Origin: Spheniscus humboldti
Lineage: Eukaryota
Assembly (NCBI GenBank): GCA_027474245.1
Contig: CM049899.1
Coordinates: forward strand, 1,084,536 to 1,148,535
Direction of reading: 5' to 3'
DNA: 64,000 nt
A program made the position numbers. Position 1 is the stretch's first letter, and each line of letters begins with the position of its first letter. Below, in pieces: positions 46,001-58,000 of the stretch.

Positions 46001-49000
46001 GAATCCTCCTGGTGTGCGGGGCACTGCCTGGGGCATCTCCATGTTTGATGGTCAGACAAACCCCAATGAAGCCACAAAAGTGAGGTTGGTGCTGTCTGTA
46101 GGCTGAGATGGGGATCAAGCGGCTTGCTGAGGTTTCCAACAGACCTACTGGTCTCTGACAGTGACTGTTTAAGAGTCCCAGTTCCTTTTCAAATCAGAAA
46201 TTTTCCTTTTTTTTGTTTCTCCCACCTAATATTAGGAACTTGACAACTGAGACCATGGAGCACACCCAGCTTCACACCACTGCAGCTGTCCCTGGGACAA
46301 GGGAGCTGTGATGTCCTGTACCTCTGATGGTGTAGTGAGGAATTCCTGCTATAAAGCAGAGAATCACAGAACTGATTGAATGCTTGAGGATGGAAGGGAC
46401 CTCTGGAGGTCATCTTGTCCAAGCCCCCTGCTCAAGCAGGGCCACCTAGAGCCAATTGCTCAGGACCATGTCCTGACAGCTTTTGAATATCTCCAAGAGT
46501 GGACACTCTGCAGCACGGCTGATGCGGGACAAGAAAGACACAAAAGATCCAACCAAACATACGTCTGACTTACTTCCATGGTCATGGGGAACCTGAGTGC
46601 TTTGCCTACCATTGTCAGACCTCTGGTAGAAGGAAATGCACAAACACTCCTGGTGGAATAGACCTCAGTTCTCTAGTCCAACCTCCTGCTCACAGCAAGG
46701 GCAGTTATGGGGTCACAACAAGTTGCTCAGGGATTTATTCATGTTGTGTTTGACAACTTCCAAGAATTGACACGGCACAACCTCTCTGGACAACCTGTTT
46801 GTGTGCTTGACTAATGTGAAAGGCAAGATGCTAACTGCAATATGACTTGCTTAGAAGAATAAATGCTATCTGAGACTATGAGCTTTTACCTCAGAGTCGA
46901 TGTGACCTGAAGACCCAACCTAAGACAGCTCTTACCAGCTGAGAACACCTCATACCAAAGACAAAACAACAGAAGATTCACCTTTCCAAAAAACAAGCAC
47001 GTAACCACAGCCAGAACAGCAATTGACCGGATACCAATATAAACCCACCCACATCACCTGCAAGGGACATCGGTTTAGAACAATGAAGATTAACACACCA
47101 CTGACCATACATCCAGACTACCTGCATGGGACAAGCATGTACTGATCCTGCATGGGACAAGTACATACTGATTACATGAGCAGTAGTGAGTAACTGATTA
47201 GCCCACCCCTTAACATGAGTAATTTGATTGGTCTACACAACTGTATTGTAACATATATAAACCCTGCTTTCCTCTGTATCGGGGTCCCCCATGCATTAGG
47301 CTGGGGCACCGCGATGTGCATAGCTGAAATATAAAAGAATAAATTCCCTTGGTAATTCTATGCTAAATATCTTTGCCTCCCTCCTCAGCCAGTGAAGAGC
47401 AAACTTTTACACTGTCTTCATGGGTAAACAGTTTTTCCTCACTTGTTTCAATTGATGCCCACTGACCCTCATCCTCCCATCATGCACAAGGAAGAGTCTG
47501 GCTCCATCTTCTTGATGAGGTCCGGGCAGGGGTAGAAAGACTCTTAGTAGATCTCCAGAAAGCCTTCTCTTCTCATGACTGAACAAACCCAGCTCCCTCA
47601 GGCTCCCATAGTGACAAAGTTGACCTTACAAATGCATGCCTGAGATGTTTAAGGCTCTTCCAGTCCTGCTGGATTTTACTGGATTTGCAAGGGACCTTAG
47701 GAATGCTGGAATATCATCACCCACATGCCACAAATTTCTGCATGTCACTCTCATTTGTCATATGGTTTCCATGCGCAGGTGTTGCAGGCTGTGAGGAGGG
47801 CCTATTCTGAACAAGTAGCTATTCATAATTAAACTTTCAGCTTAAAATGCTTCAGGCCCAAGAGGCAACATCAGAACAGTAGGAGAGGCTGGCCCTGGGA
47901 ATGCCATGCTTGGTGCTCACCCAGGAATCCATGACTGCAAGAATCACAGTAGCTATCATCAGAGATGACAGAATCATTCAATCGTTCAGATTGGAAGAGA
48001 CCTTGGGATGTCTCTAGACCAGCCTTCTATTTACATCAGGATCAACACTGAAATCCCCCCAAGTTCCTCAGGACTTTGTCCAACAGAGGCCTCAGAAGGG
48101 AAATAGTAATCAACAAAACAGAGCTGAGGGGGAATCACCCCAAATATATGCACATAAATAAGAAAGACACTACAGGACAGCATGATGGAAATGCACTCAT
48201 GCCCCTTCTGAGAAATCAGCATGCCTGGACCGCTCTTTTGAGGGCTTGCCCAGTAATTCACACACAGTGAGAAAACACAAGAGGAATTATAAGTCTGTGG
48301 AAGTTACACAGCCACAATGTCATTTGGATAACAGAGTTGTGGTAGTTAGCTCACACAACCGGAGTGCTGCAATAGACGGATACAGGCTCTTTAGAAGGAC
48401 AGGCCGAGAGGGCAAGGAGGAGAAGCTGCCCTTGATGCAAGAGAGCAGTGATAATGCATGGAGTTCAGCCTGGAGAGAAGCGATTGACTCAGCTGAAAAC
48501 CAATGGATAAGTGGGCAGAGCAACATGGTTGACATTGCAGTGGGTGTCTGCTATAGGGAATCAGGAATATTCAGGAAGAATTAGATGAGGCCTTCTTCAG
48601 ATGTTCAAGGGCCCTGCTCCTCATGGAGAACTTGAAACCCCTTGATATCTGCCAGAGGGGAAATAGCAGGGCACAAGCTATCTAGAAGACTTCTGGACAA
48701 CAGAGATGGTAACTTCCCAAACATTAAGACATGGGGTTGGGAAAGCCAGAGCCCACCTGGAGTTGAATCTGGGAAGGGGCATGAAGGGCAACAAGAAAGG
48801 ATACTCCAAGTACATCAGCAGCAAAAGGAAGGCAAGGGGAAACATGGAGAACTGCTAAATGGGGCAGGAGTCCTGGTGCCAAAAGATACGGAGGAGGCTG
48901 AGGGACTCAATGCCTTTTTCACCTCACTCCTTGCTTGTTAGAAGCCTTCAGGAACTCCAGTCCTTTGAGATGAGAGGGAAAGTTCAGAGCAAGGAAGACT

Positions 49001-55000: not shown

Positions 55001-58000
55001 AGAGGAGTTAGCAGCAGTGATCCCTGTCCCACTGGGTCTGCTTCCCACCCTGACCAGCATGGCCAGTGCAGGGTCATCCCTTAGCCCTGAGCATCACAGC
55101 TCACTTGCTCTGTAGAGCAGCACCGCCAGCTTGGGGTACTGGGGGGTGTATGGGGAGGGGGGCAGGAACAGCTGGCCAGATAGAGGAGGAATAGGGAGAG
55201 ATCAGAAGGAAGCCAATGTGGGCTTGAAACTGCCTCAAATAGAACAATGCTGGCATTCAGCTAACCCAAGCCCATGTTCAGAGTGTGGGTACACTGTGTG
55301 CTCATGGGTGAAGACCCAGATATCCTTGCTGTCCTGGTGCTCCACAGGGCCTGGAAAGTGGCTGAAAAGGAAAGGACTGGAGTCCTCCATTCCCCATCTC
55401 TTATTGCCATTGTTTGTCCCTTTGATGAAATGGGAGGCTGGAGCCTTGTGCCTGAGCTTGCACTGAAGGAAGTATGACCGAGGAGCCATGTCAGTTTGCT
55501 GCTGTCCCTCAGTCCCCATCCCCAGCACAGGCCCATAAGACAGTCCCTCCCACTCTGTGTGCCAGCCCTTACCCCATTATCACCCCTAGACAAAGTTCCT
55601 CAGCCAGGCTCCTGCTAGAGGCCTGGGATCCAGCTGTGATTACAGGGAGGACAAGTCCTCTCCTGAACCCTTTGCAGGGCTGGCAGCATCTGGGAGCCCC
55701 ACAGGAGAATGGAGCATGTGGAGGAGATTCTGGGGCCCTGTAGAGCATTCCCATGCCCATAGGGGCCCTCAAACATGATCCCTGACTTCAAAGATCCAGC
55801 CCAGCTTGTTGTTGTTTGAACAAACAGAAGAAACTGCCCCCGAACGGTTTCCAGACCCAGACACTTATACCAGCCATTTCCAGCCCTGGCCATTGACCAC
55901 AGACCAGTTGAGGACTGCTCTTTGGGATGTGATCAGCTTCATCCTCCTTTTGGTGTCAGTGCCTGTGTCCTGGTTTCGGCAGGGATAGAGTTAACTTCCT
56001 TCCTAGTAGCTGGTACAGTGCTGTGTTTTGGATTTAGGATGAGAACAAAGTTGATACACACCGATGTTTTAGTTGTTGCTAGGTAATGCTTACACTAGTC
56101 AAGGACTTTTCAGCTTCCCATGCTCTACCTACTGAGGCGGCTTGGAGGTGCACAAGAAGCTGGCAGGGGGCACAGCCAAACTGGCCAAAGGGATATTCCA
56201 TACCCTGTGACGTCATGCTCAGTACATAAACTGGGGGAAAGCTGGCCAGGGGGGCTGCTGCTCAGGGACTGGCTGGGCATTGGTTGGCGGGTGGTGAGCA
56301 ATTGTACTGTGCATCACTTGCTTTGTGTATTATCATTATTATTATTACATTATTATTATTACTGTTATTATTATTTTATTTCAATTATTAAACTGTTTTT
56401 ATCTCAACCCACGCGTTTTTCTCACTTGTGCTCTTCCAATTCTCTCCCCCATCCCACAGGGGTAGGGGGGGAGTGAGTGAGCGGCTGCGTGGTGCTCAGT
56501 TGCCGACTGAGATTAAACCATGACAGCCTGTATCAGGTGAATAGTCAGCCCTGCCTGGTCCCTCTCCCAGTCGAGACCCTGGCAGACCCCCAGAGCAGGG
56601 CTGCCTGCAAACACCCACATGGGTATGGGCAGGGCTGGGCACGGGCTGGGCACTAGGGGGAGCTCTTGTGCTCTAAAAATGTCCTTAAAATTCAGGATCC
56701 TGATTCAACTCTTCACCAGGCCCATATCTCTCAAGATTGTGAATTCCACCAGGGCATGATCACTGCAGCCCAGGCTGCCACCAGTTTTGACAATCAGTTC
56801 ATCTTTGTTGGTATGCAATAGGTCCAGTAAGGATTCTCCTCTGATCGGGCTGTCTATTATCTAGATTAAGAAATTATATTCAACTCTCTCCAGGAGTCTC
56901 TTGGACTGCTTACATCTTGCTGTGCTGCTTATCCAGCAGCTGTCAGGAGGATTGGAGTCCCTCAGCAGGATCAAACCCTGCAAGTGTGATGCTGCCTGTA
57001 GTTAAAGAATGCTTCATCTACAGGCTCCTCTTGGTCAGGCAGCCTATAGTAAACACCAACCACTGGTTTTGTTTGTTTTCTTGCCCCCTAATTTTTACCC
57101 AGAAGCTCTCAACCTGTTCTTTGCTCTTTTTCCAAGACAGCTCTGGGCAGTCGATCCATTTTTTTACATAGAGGGTAACGCCCCCAACCCTTCCTTCCTT
57201 GACTGTCACTTCTGAACTATTTGCAGCACTCTGGTTGTGTGATTCATCCCACCACGTTTCAGTGATAGTGATTATATTGTAGCTTTTTAGCTGCACGGTG
57301 GCTTCCAGCTCCTCCTGCTTGTTACCCATGCTGCATGAGTGGTGTGCACAGAGGCACTTCAGCTGGCCTATTGACTGTGGATGCCTTTTTAGAGGAACAT
57401 GCCCTAATTCCTTTGAGGCCTTTCACAGGTGCTTCCCTGTTTGTTCCTAATACACCAGCAGCCCCTGGCACTTCTCTGTTGCTCAAAACTCCAACCCCTT
57501 CTCCTTAATTTTTTCTTTTTTTTTGACATTTTCAAAACATTTCTATTATAGTCAGGACTGCAGCATTAAAAAAGAGAATTTAGCTTCTTGCAGACACTTG
57601 TGCCCTAAAAATTCTCCCCTCCCAGCATTGTGCATGCCACAACTCACTAAAGAGTGAGTCAGCCACCAAGGTATCAAGCTCTTTCACCTGATATGGGGAA
57701 GCAGGGCGACCACCTTCAGTGAAACACCATTTTTGTGTAGTCAAATTTGCTCTATTAGCAATATATTTGTGTTACAGTGTCTACTTAAAGGGGTTTCTAG
57801 ATCATGTATCCACACTCCCTTTTCACTCCCTTCATGGTTAACGATATGTGACTCCATTTTTGGTGAAGAAAGGGAGGATACGGGTCTCCTCAAACATCAG
57901 ATACCTCAGTGCAGATGTCTATCTCCAATCAAGTAGTCTAGACTTCCCTTTAATGGAGAGCAGGAAGTTGTCTCAACTGAGGTGTCTGGAAATACTTTAA

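What the first reader, a model, noticed from the sequence alone, without database searches (positions are those of the whole stretch)
48246..57400. Inverted segmental duplication (palindrome-like, centre about 52.4 kb) carrying an OR pseudogene and a CR1 in each arm
OR N-termini face each other at 52030 (minus) and 52754 (plus), each about 360 bp from a central CR1 3' fragment (52330-52612). Further out, 49840-50860 (+) mirrors 54900-55900 (-). For example, 'MSRGDNGVRAGTWSERD...KAPTSHFIKGTNNDIKRWGMEDSSPFLFSHFPGPVEHQDSKDI' corresponds to 'MSRGDNGVRAGTQSGRD...' and 'KAPASHFIKGTNNGNKRWGMEDSSPFLFSHFPGPVEHQDSKDI', and 'SHPDQHGQCRV' appears in both. The CR1-like sequences 48246-49960 (+) and 55600-57360 (-) pair as well. 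The left-arm OR has a large internal deletion. The right arm alone carries solo LTR 55966-56525 with its own TSD, so that LTR inserted after the duplication. The same OR-plus-3'-flank unit also occurs in tandem at 43540-45124. OR clusters evolve by this kind of local duplication and inversion.
Basis: seen in the sequence. Interest (0 to 1): 0.55.

Follow-up and report, generated by a model that had tools for sequence, protein, structure and literature searches.

The report
Old inverted pair of smell-receptor pseudogenes
Two decayed copies of a bird olfactory-receptor gene and its downstream flank lie head-to-head as an old, roughly 77%-identical inverted repeat, which is an ordinary product of how these gene clusters evolve; the only unusual feature is two short patches that stayed almost identical, probably through gene conversion.

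Summary
The inverted repeat is real. Three collinear blocks (49842-50996/55899-54728, 51104-51596/54065-53567, 51595-51878/53190-52907) align about 2.0 kb of the left arm with about 3.0 kb of the right arm at about 77% identity. They cover an avian OR14 (gamma-c) receptor pseudogene and its non-TE 3' flank.

Several details in the finding are wrong:
- The two outer CR1 elements are not a duplicated pair. They are 55% identical, no closer than unrelated CR1 copies.
- The left OR has no N-terminus. Its homology stops at TM2, position 51878.
- The "centre" is the right unit's own 5' flank plus a later CR1 insertion, so there is one junction, at 51879-51914.
- The solo LTR and its 5-bp target-site duplication (TSD) are real, but they lie 66 bp outside the homologous arm.

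The unit has four copies in the window: D, A and B in direct orientation, and C inverted. It also occurs next to OR14 genes of other birds. A, B and C are about equidistant (K2P about 0.3), so the arrangement is old. Two patches, 162 bp at 97% and 82 bp at 100%, stand out against this background. A related sequence from another assembly does not conserve them, which favours arm-to-arm gene conversion.

Verdict: an ordinary OR-cluster rearrangement of low novelty.

The parts
49842..51878 (-). Left arm, unit B. A 5'-truncated OR14 pseudogene fragment plus its 3' flank, in unit orientation on the minus strand.
   Evidence: Three collinear inverted blastn blocks to 52907-55899. Pairwise alignment gives 1988 shared columns, 77.3% identity and K2P 0.275.
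51492..51878 (-). OR B pseudogene remnant. TM2-TM4 is 51595-51878 and TM7-stop is 51492-51594. It lacks the N-terminus and TM1, and lacks 378 bp spanning TM4-TM7.
   Evidence: Alignment with copies A and C, three-frame translation, tblastn.
51879..51914 (.). The single junction between truncated unit B and the 5' flank of unit C.
   Evidence: B-to-A/C homology ends at 51878. Homology to the region upstream of a Larus OR14 gene begins at 51915.
51915..52351 (+).
   Evidence: 51915-52136 is 71% identical over 226 bp to L001 18636-18411, about 0.8 kb upstream of a Larus michahellis OR14 gene and in sense orientation.
52352..52612 (+). 5'-truncated CR1 3' fragment (ORF2 aa 801-858 plus tail ATTCTATGATTCTGTG), inserted in unit C's upstream region.
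   Evidence: tblastn with the window's intact CR1 ORF2, alignment of CR1 3' ends, and 90% identity to CR1 43304-43531.
52754..53653 (+). OR C pseudogene. Full length from ATG to stop, but with at least 3 frameshifts. OR14/gamma-c family.
52907..55899 (+). Right arm, the part of unit C homologous to unit B.
54066..54727 (+). Segment present in C but not in B. It contains 41/42-bp tandem repeats at 54297-54445. It is at least partly ancestral; A, B and D carry a different filler of about 100-200 bp at this position.
   Evidence: Gaps in the B-C alignment, TRF. 54515-54642 matches L003 1322-1191, and 54332-54727 matches Grus L002 6324-6730.
50267..50428 (.). Near-identity tract 1, left copy. Partner is 55311-55472. 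5 differences in 162 bp.
55311..55472 (.). Near-identity tract 1, right copy.
50102..50183 (.). Identity tract 2, left copy. Partner is 55558-55639. 0 differences in 82 bp.
55558..55639 (.). Identity tract 2, right copy.
48328..49848 (+). Left outer CR1. It is internally deleted (ORF2 aa -32 to 59, 267-333, 580-828) and 3'-truncated exactly at the arm boundary. It is not part of the duplication.
56727..57345 (-). Right outer CR1 5' portion (ORF2 aa -59 to 154). It is unrelated by descent to the left CR1.
55961..56530 (+). Solo LTR 55966-56525 (TG...CA ends) with 5-bp TSD GCCTG on each side. It lies 66 bp outside the homologous arm.
43533..45200 (-). Unit A. An OR14 pseudogene (ATG about 45093, stop about 44130) plus its 3' flank, which is cut by CR1 43289-43531. 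Direct relative to B and inverted relative to C.
   Evidence: The flank resumes at 43251-43299, which matches L003 3-52.
33531..34212 (-). Unit D. An older copy with flank only, about 63-65% identical to B and C, lying next to ERV sequences.

Best explanation
The window is part of an avian OR14 (gamma-c) olfactory-receptor cluster that is heavily invaded by CR1 and ERV elements.

The repeated unit is a roughly 3-4 kb duplicon: about 0.8 kb of 5' flank, a single-exon OR, and at least 2.2 kb of 3' flank. Four decayed copies lie in the window:
- D at 33.5-34.2 kb, minus strand.
- A at 43.5-45.2 kb, minus strand.
- B at 49.8-51.9 kb, minus strand.
- C at 51.9-55.9 kb, plus strand.

The flagged feature is the B/C pair. 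B runs from OR TM2 to the outer end of the 3' flank and is a partial copy. It lies in inverted orientation immediately upstream of complete unit C, with a single junction at 51879-51914.

The most likely origin (inferred) is an old inverted partial duplication, by replication template-switch or break repair. It placed a promoter-less, N-terminally truncated OR copy upstream of its parent. In doing so it clipped the 3' end of a CR1 already present there, which is why that CR1 ends at 49848.

Later events were:
- Both ORs decayed, or were already pseudogenes.
- B lost 378 bp of coding sequence.
- A short CR1 inserted at 52352-52612.
- An ERV inserted and recombined to the solo LTR at 55966-56525.
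- Two short tracts of the outer flank were re-homogenised between the arms by non-allelic gene conversion.

No function is implied. This is neutral structural turnover in an OR cluster.
For: SHOWN
- Collinear inverted homology across OR and non-TE flank, E from 0 to 3e-51.
- OR14 identity and pseudogene status.
- B's homology to A and C stops at TM2, position 51878. From 51915 the sequence matches the region upstream of a gull OR14 gene, in the sense orientation of C.
- The same flank follows a crane OR14 gene (L002 11296-12133), occurs in copy D, and occurs in Logan contigs L003-L012.
- In the 3' flank, A, B and C form a clade (K2P 0.28-0.35) against gull and crane units (0.55-0.88). Among themselves they are near-equidistant: 0.29-0.32, with informative sites AB 83, AC 81, BC 70.
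- The left CR1 lacks its last roughly 30 codons and tail exactly where arm homology starts.
- The outer CR1s are 55% identical to each other.
- Identity is patchy. The tracts are 98% identical against 76.6% outside them (Fisher P = 2e-18). Exact runs of 82 and 81 bp were never reached in 20,000 permutations.
- The outgroup L003 is 70% identical to B in the tracts against 66% outside (P = 0.26), and carries 9-, 4- and 4-nt indels there.
- Widespread gene conversion among clustered gamma-c ORs is reported in bioRxiv 10.1101/2025.11.14.688425.
- The LTR differs 1.4% from its family consensus, which is younger than the arms.
Against: - The direction and mechanism (inverted duplication versus inversion) are inferred from one genome, with no orthologous outgroup region.
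- Neither arm continues beyond 49842/55899 into the sequence that A and L003 carry at that position. The supposed 'parent' copy C must therefore also have been rearranged at its outer end.
- B shares its mid-flank filler with A and D, whereas C shares a different one with L003 and a crane unit. This hints at a mosaic history or an older split between B and C than a single clean event.
- The tract edges coincide with splice-site-like motifs on the B(+)/C(-) strand. Gene conversion does not predict that.
- The only outgroup for the tracts is one paralogue or orthologue of unknown species.
Confidence: 0.75

Rival explanations
1. Simple inversion. All four units were once a head-to-tail array on the minus strand. 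A later inversion, with one breakpoint inside B's OR (between TM1 and TM2) and the other beyond unit C, flipped C.
For: Three of the four copies (D, A, B) share one orientation and only C is inverted. A, B and C are about equidistant, as expected if all arose by early tandem duplication and the flip came later. Inverted neighbouring OR14 genes also occur in the gull locus L001.
Against: An inversion predicts B's missing N-terminus/TM1 and 5' flank in inverted orientation just beyond 55899. tblastn with the OR N-terminus finds nothing to the right of 55899, and sensitive blastn of 55895-56740 finds nothing related. Later deletion could have removed it, so the model is not excluded.
Confidence: 0.2
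2. The two near-identical tracts are exons of an unannotated spliced transcript on the B(+)/C(-) strand, kept by purifying selection in both arms rather than by gene conversion.
For: On that strand the tracts are bounded by TCACAG|CTGG (50107/50108), GGG|GTAAGG (50168/50169) and CTTCCTTCAG|TG (50276/50277). The less conserved 108-nt interval between them is only 72% identical. Strong donors of this type occur about once per 3 kb per strand, and such acceptors about once per 256 bp. By my rough estimate the joint placement is unlikely by chance, on the order of 1e-3, but this is a post hoc calculation. One reading frame stays open across the inferred splice.
Against: - There is no Pfam or Rfam match.
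- A 5.8-billion-protein search with the opposite-strand ORF found no homologue.
- The only hit among 1.84 billion representatives is an unnamed ORF from short Logan contigs.
- In that related sequence the acceptor AG is lost (CAA) and frame-breaking indels occur. Tract identity there (70%) is not higher than background (66%, P = 0.26).
- 0 differences in 82 bp and 5 in 162 bp are fewer than even synonymous sites of a constrained coding exon should show at a neutral K2P of about 0.3 (inference).
Confidence: 0.08
3. The inverted matches are only independent transposon insertions or chance, or an assembly artefact that created a false palindrome.
For: The window is rich in repeats. There are about 15 CR1 fragments and several LTRs, and both arms abut CR1 elements that point inward.
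Against: - The matching blocks are the OR coding sequence and its flank, in the same order and orientation. They carry no TE protein domains.
- The flank is always found 3' of OR14 genes, including in crane.
- E-values are effectively zero.
- Artefactual palindromes are near 100% identical, whereas these arms are 77% identical and carry private indels and private TE insertions.
Confidence: 0.02

Closest known systems
Lineage-specific tandem and inverted duplication of avian gamma-c (OR14) olfactory receptor genes in clusters, with pseudogenisation (Steiger et al. 2009, PMC2758906; bioRxiv 10.1101/2025.11.14.688425)
   Same: It is the same gene family. It has the same clustered multi-copy organisation, with units in both orientations: four copies here, and an inverted OR14 pair in gull locus L001. 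The duplicated unit includes flanking DNA, and all copies here are pseudogenes.
   Different: The copies are much more diverged from each other (K2P about 0.3) than the homogenised intact gamma-c genes described within species. The two gull genes differ by only 0.04-0.05. These copies have therefore largely escaped concerted evolution.
Non-allelic (interlocus) gene conversion between paralogues in gamma-c OR clusters (bioRxiv 10.1101/2025.11.14.688425)
   Same: Short, sharply bounded tracts of near identity (82 bp at 100%, 162 bp at 97%) sit in an otherwise diverged pair of nearby paralogous segments. The tracts are not conserved in an outgroup copy.
   Different: The tracts lie in the non-coding 3' flank about 1-1.4 kb from the OR, not in the ORF, and the partners are inverted pseudogene units. 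No formal multi-sequence GENECONV test was possible, because only B, C and one outgroup cover this region.
Large near-perfect palindromes of sex chromosomes (for example human Y P1-P8), maintained by arm-to-arm conversion
   Same: Two inverted arms are separated by a spacer, with evidence of some arm-to-arm sequence exchange.
   Different: Arm identity is 77%, not above 99.9%. The arms are about 2-3 kb, not tens of kb to Mb. The arms are unequal, since one is a truncated copy. The spacer is simply the other unit's 5' flank. No intact genes are present. This is therefore not a member of that class.

Membership tests
Avian OR14 / gamma-c olfactory receptor genes | Class A GPCR of the olfactory type (Pfam 7tm_4) | tested here: met
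   ORF pieces of A and C hit PF13853 at E = 2e-13 and 2.5e-11, both above the gathering score.
Avian OR14 / gamma-c olfactory receptor genes | Closest relatives are bird OR14-type receptors | tested here: met
   The frameshift-corrected C translation has all 120 listed hits from birds. The named ones are almost all OR14A16, 14J1, 14C36, 14K1 or 14I1-like, at 63-72% identity and E down to 1e-176.
Avian OR14 / gamma-c olfactory receptor genes | Intact single-exon ORF of about 305-320 codons (a functional gene) | tested here: not met
   A has at least 5 frame changes plus stops. C has at least 3 frameshifts. B lacks about 55 N-terminal codons and 378 bp internally. All three are pseudogenes.
Inverted segmental duplication | Collinear reverse-complement homology extending through non-transposon sequence | tested here: met
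   Three collinear blocks cover the OR and its 3' flank. The flank has no TE domains and accompanies OR14 genes in other birds.
Inverted segmental duplication | The two arms are each other's closest relatives, that is, they arose from one another | tested here: inconclusive
   In the OR plus near flank, A, B and C are equidistant (K2P 0.29-0.32). In the far flank only B and C are present in the window and they share the same outer breakpoint, but B's mid-flank structure matches A and D rather than C.
   Left and right CR1 are 55.5% identical over the shared 344 aligned columns, no more than to unrelated CR1 copies (50-65%), against 77% for the arms.
True genomic palindrome maintained by conversion | Near-perfect arm identity (above 99%) along the whole arm | tested here: not met
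   Overall identity is 77.3%. Only 244 of 1988 shared columns lie in tracts of 97-100% identity.
Solo LTR of an endogenous retrovirus | TG...CA termini, target-site duplication, homology to other LTR copies, and no internal sequence | tested here: met
   55966 begins TGTCC and 56525 ends GACA. GCCTG lies on both sides. The element is 85-91% identical to three other copies. The flanks are non-retroviral.
CR1 LINE insertion (central fragment 52352-52612) | 5'-truncated copy that retains the canonical 3' end and octamer tail | tested here: met
   It matches ORF2 aa 801-858 and ends ...ATTCTATGATTCTGTG.

The most novel reading that the evidence does not exclude
The two near-identical islands (50102-50183/55558-55639 and 50267-50428/55311-55472) could be exons of an unannotated spliced RNA embedded in the OR14 duplicon, antisense to its own OR. 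In the head-to-head arrangement each copy lies upstream of, and in sense with, the other arm's OR. They would be kept identical by selection, or by selection-biased conversion. That would point to a conserved non-coding transcript, for example an upstream OR exon or a regulatory RNA, associated with avian gamma-c clusters.
Probability: 0.07. Interest if true: 0.5.

Novelty: new member of a known kind. Interest (0 to 1): 0.15.

Why it matters
It matters little beyond annotation. The locus is a worked example of how an avian OR14 cluster turns over. The steps visible here are partial inverted duplication, pseudogene decay, CR1 and ERV insertion, solo-LTR formation and patchy conversion.

Three practical points follow. 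Mirror-image transposons flanking a repeat need not belong to that repeat. In such clusters, flank structure resolves duplication history better than ORF distances do. Conversion in gamma-c clusters can also act on non-coding flank between inverted pseudogene units.

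Tried and rejected
1. Pairing of the outer CR1s. Sensitive blastn (word size 7), mapping of each to the window's intact CR1, and a four-way alignment gave no identity above the level of unrelated CR1 copies. Rejected.
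2. An OR N-terminus in the left arm. None was found.
3. The flank as a coding gene. Pfam gave nothing for four flank ORFs. A 5.8-billion-protein search with the 200-aa ORF 49839-50441(-) gave nothing.
4. A known RNA. An Rfam E-value search of 43-58 kb gave only one chance-level bacterial hit.
5. Exact look-up of the window's ERV gag to identify the source assembly. Not on record, so the species remains unknown.
6. A metagenome scan for a 30-mer from tract 2. No match.
7. Long 'OR14' protein models (P0001 and others) as possible evidence for extra exons. They are fusions of adjacent ORs and are uninformative.
8. A homologue in C of the mid-flank filler carried by A, B and D. None scored above shuffled controls.
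9. Continuation of either arm beyond 49842/55899 into the sequence that A and L003 carry. None was found.
10. RNA-fold z-scores for the tracts. The script timed out and one request was too long. I did not pursue this after the Rfam result.

Full report
**Nature of the window.** The 64-kb window is avian nuclear DNA. It carries many CR1 LINE fragments, including one with an intact 858-aa ORF2 that has endonuclease and RT domains. It also carries several retroviral LTRs and proviral genes and olfactory-receptor sequences. A frameshift-corrected translation of the right-arm OR gives listed hits only from birds, the named ones being OR14A16, 14J1 or 14C36-like proteins at 63-72% identity. ORF pieces match Pfam 7tm_4. 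The source species could not be identified.

**Check of the observation.** I compared the window with itself by blastn, on both strands. Within 47.5-58 kb this gave exactly three matches, all inverted and collinear:
- 49842-50996 with 55899-54728: 76.8% over 1198 columns, E = 0.
- 51104-51596 with 54065-53567: 68%, E = 8e-66.
- 51595-51878 with 53190-52907: 75.5%, E = 3e-51.

A pairwise alignment of the arms has 1988 shared columns at 77.3% identity, K2P 0.275. It is interrupted by a 378-bp gap in the left arm, corresponding to right-arm 53192-53569 in the OR between TM4 and TM7. It is also interrupted by about 640 bp present only in the right arm, 54066-54727. The inverted diagonal therefore runs through the OR and its flank. 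It is far beyond chance and is not built from transposon fragments. At 77% identity, with private indels and private TE insertions, it cannot be an assembly-generated false palindrome.

**What the arms contain.** All OR copies are pseudogenes.
- The right copy (C, 52754-53653, plus strand) is full length but needs at least three frame corrections.
- The copy at 45093-44130 (A, minus strand) needs at least five and has in-frame stops.
- The left copy (B) is a remnant. Its homology to A and C starts abruptly at TM2 ('HLHTLMYFF', 51878) and it lacks TM4-TM7.
- tblastn with the OR N-terminus finds C, A and a distant fourth OR at about 11 kb, but nothing in 51879-52352.

**The centre is not a symmetry axis.** Sequence 51915-52136 is 71% identical over 226 bp to a region about 0.8 kb upstream of a Larus michahellis OR14 gene, in the sense orientation of C (L001 18636-18411). 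C's proximal upstream region, 52615-52753, aligns with the upstream regions of A, of the gull gene and of the crane gene. The 'spacer' is therefore unit C's own 5' flank.

An ordinary 5'-truncated CR1 3' fragment (52352-52612) inserted into that flank later. It covers ORF2 aa 801-858 and keeps the canonical ATTCTATG-type tail. It is 90% identical to another short CR1 at 43304-43531, so it is younger than the arms. There is consequently one junction only, within 51879-51914, where truncated B meets C's upstream flank.

**The outer CR1 elements do not pair.** I mapped each onto the window's intact CR1.
- The left element (48328-49848, plus strand) comprises ORF2 aa -32 to 59, 267-333 and 580-828.
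- The right element (57345-56727, minus strand) comprises aa -59 to 154.

Over their common part they are 55.5% identical. Left versus the reference CR1 is 57.5%, right versus the reference is 65%, and the neighbouring arms are 77%. The most sensitive blastn finds a single 97-bp match at 66%. They are independent insertions of different CR1 lineages that happen to face inward.

The left CR1 is informative in another way. It lacks its last roughly 30 codons and tail, and it ends within 6 bp of the first homologous base of the arm. LINEs insert 3'-end first (established knowledge). A 3'-truncated copy therefore marks a later rearrangement breakpoint.

**The solo LTR.** The LTR at 55966-56525 has TG...CA ends and GCCTG on both sides. 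It is 85-91% identical to three other copies in the window. However, it lies 66 bp beyond the last homologous base (55899), so its absence from the left arm is uninformative. Its relative youth follows instead from divergence: 1.4% from the four-copy consensus, with the other copies at 5.5-6.5%, against about 12-15% per arm.

**A four-copy family, also present in other birds.** Besides A, B and C there is a flank-only copy D at 33531-34212 (minus strand). It is about 63-65% identical to B and C and lies next to ERV sequences. D, A and B share one orientation, and only C is inverted.

The same 3' flank also occurs elsewhere:
- It follows a Grus japonensis OR14 gene (L002 11296-12133).
- It occurs in short Logan contigs L003-L012, which I found through the only protein-level hit of a flank ORF among 1.84 billion representatives.
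- L003 covers B 49910-51007 and C 55844-54728 at about 65%.
- L003 1191-1322 matches C 54642-54515, and crane L002 6324-6730 matches C 54332-54727. The C-only segment is therefore at least partly ancestral, not a new insertion.
- L003 3-52 matches window 43251-43299, just left of the CR1 that interrupts A's flank. A thus suffered a CR1-associated deletion of about 1 kb.
- Neither B nor C carries that sequence beyond 49842/55899. The outer end of B-C homology is therefore a shared breakpoint.

**Relationships and age.** In the 3' flank, A, B and C are much closer to each other (K2P 0.28-0.35) than to the gull or crane units (0.55-0.88). They arose within this lineage. Among themselves they are nearly equidistant over 726 shared columns: A-C 0.299, B-C 0.321, A-B 0.293, with pair-supporting sites AB 83, AC 81 and BC 70. 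The inverted pair is thus no younger than the direct copy.

Taking a generic avian neutral rate of about 2-3e-9 per site per year (my own knowledge, rough), K2P of about 0.3 implies tens of millions of years. The order of events inferred from divergence is:
1. The duplications.
2. The central CR1 and the LTR insertion.
3. The identity tracts.

**Patchy identity.** Per-segment K2P between B and C is as follows:

| Segment | K2P (B vs C) |
|---|---|
| OR | 0.25-0.28 |
| Near flank | 0.37 |
| Inner far flank | 0.31 |
| Tract 1 (B 50267-50428 / C 55311-55472; 5 differences in 162 bp) | 0.032 |
| Interval between the tracts (83 bp) | 0.37 |
| Tract 2 (B 50102-50183 / C 55558-55639; 0 differences in 82 bp) | 0 |
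| Outermost 258 bp | 0.22 |

Exact runs of 82 and 81 bp were never reached in 20,000 column permutations, where the longest run was 60.

Two readings are possible. On the B(+)/C(-) strand the tracts are framed by acceptor- and donor-like motifs with a 108-nt poorly conserved interval between them. This suggests exons. The outgroup test argues against constraint:
- L003 is 70.4% identical to B inside the tracts and 66.3% outside (Fisher P = 0.26).
- B-C is 98% inside against 76.6% outside (P = 2e-18).
- L003 has lost the acceptor AG and carries 9-, 4- and 4-nt indels in tract 1.
- No Pfam, Rfam or named protein relative exists.
- Identity of 98-100% is also higher than synonymous sites of a constrained exon should retain at this neutral distance (inference).

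Recent non-allelic gene conversion between the inverted arms is therefore the better explanation. It agrees with the report that gene conversion is pervasive among clustered gamma-c ORs (bioRxiv 10.1101/2025.11.14.688425). The exon reading keeps a small residual probability.

**Mechanism.**
- Shown: the anatomy, the single inner junction, the shared outer breakpoint and the clipped CR1.
- Inferred: a segment running from OR TM2 to the outer flank end was copied in inverted orientation and joined about 0.6 kb (CR1-free distance) upstream of the parent OR, into or next to a pre-existing CR1.
- Rival: a simple inversion of one unit of a head-to-tail array. That model predicts B's missing N-terminus and 5' flank beyond 55899, and they are not there. 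Later loss cannot be excluded, so I give it about 0.2.
- Complication: the mid-flank fillers differ. A, B and D share one, while C, L003 and a crane unit share another. The history includes further exchange or deletion that one genome cannot resolve.

**Comparison with known systems, and verdict.** This is a typical piece of an avian OR14 cluster: duplicon units in both orientations, pseudogenisation, TE invasion and local conversion. It fails the defining feature of true conversion-maintained palindromes, which is near-perfect arm identity. It is a new instance of a known kind. Its interest is low, about 0.15, mainly for the clean example of flank-located conversion tracts and as a caution about mirror-image TEs.

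Noticed in passing
window 26105-33080 (minus strand): An apparently intact, very young endogenous retrovirus. The two 587-bp LTRs (26105-26691 and 32494-33080) are 100% identical. It has a 5-bp TSD TCAGG, a PBS complementary to tRNA-Lys, an open gag-like ORF of 701 aa (30286-32391) and a pro-pol ORF of 1043 aa (27100-30231). No env ORF was seen. An older, degraded pol copy lies inverted at 34635-37799 (74.7% identity over 3.2 kb).
   Followed up: partly
window 39840-42808 (minus strand): A near-full-length CR1 with an open 858-aa ORF2 (39944-42520; endonuclease plus RT domains) and an ORF1 remnant upstream. This is potentially a recently active LINE. Its 3' 830 bp is tandemly duplicated (38961-39792 vs 39856-40689, 93% identity).
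   Followed up: partly
window 58718-61795: A large degenerate minisatellite block with periods of 29, 58, 115/116 and 145 bp and a strongly C-rich plus strand (GC skew -0.35). An inverted copy of the same repeat lies at 58718-59651.
   Followed up: no
window 10400-11205 (minus strand): A fourth OR pseudogene from a different OR family. It is only about 35% identical at protein level to the OR14 copies and is frameshifted between TM3 and TM4.
   Followed up: partly
window 17930-22414: Three more copies of the LTR family seen at 55966 (17930-18475 minus, 19320-19872 plus, 21838-22414 plus). LTR 19320 is followed by a tRNA-Lys-type PBS and by degraded gag/integrase ORFs, so it is a rearranged provirus. 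The 3' flank of LTR 21838 (CTTGTATCAG..AATAGT) resembles the 3' flank of LTR 55966 (CCTGTATCAGGTGAATAGT), and I have no explanation for this.
   Followed up: no
L003-L012 (Logan contigs from SRR29354198, SRR29449366, SRR31861008 and others): Contigs of about 1.3 kb carrying a 65%-identical relative of the OR14 3' flank recur with an identical 153-aa ORF in more than 30 sequencing runs. The species, and whether these runs are DNA or RNA data, are unknown. If they are RNA data, the flank is transcribed.
   Followed up: partly
L001 (Larus michahellis NW_027436399.1) 9906-10893 (+) and 17699-16383 (-): Two OR14 genes only 4-5% diverged from each other lie in inverted (tail-to-tail) orientation about 5.5 kb apart. 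This shows that inverted OR14 neighbours, homogenised in this case, are common in other birds.
   Followed up: partly
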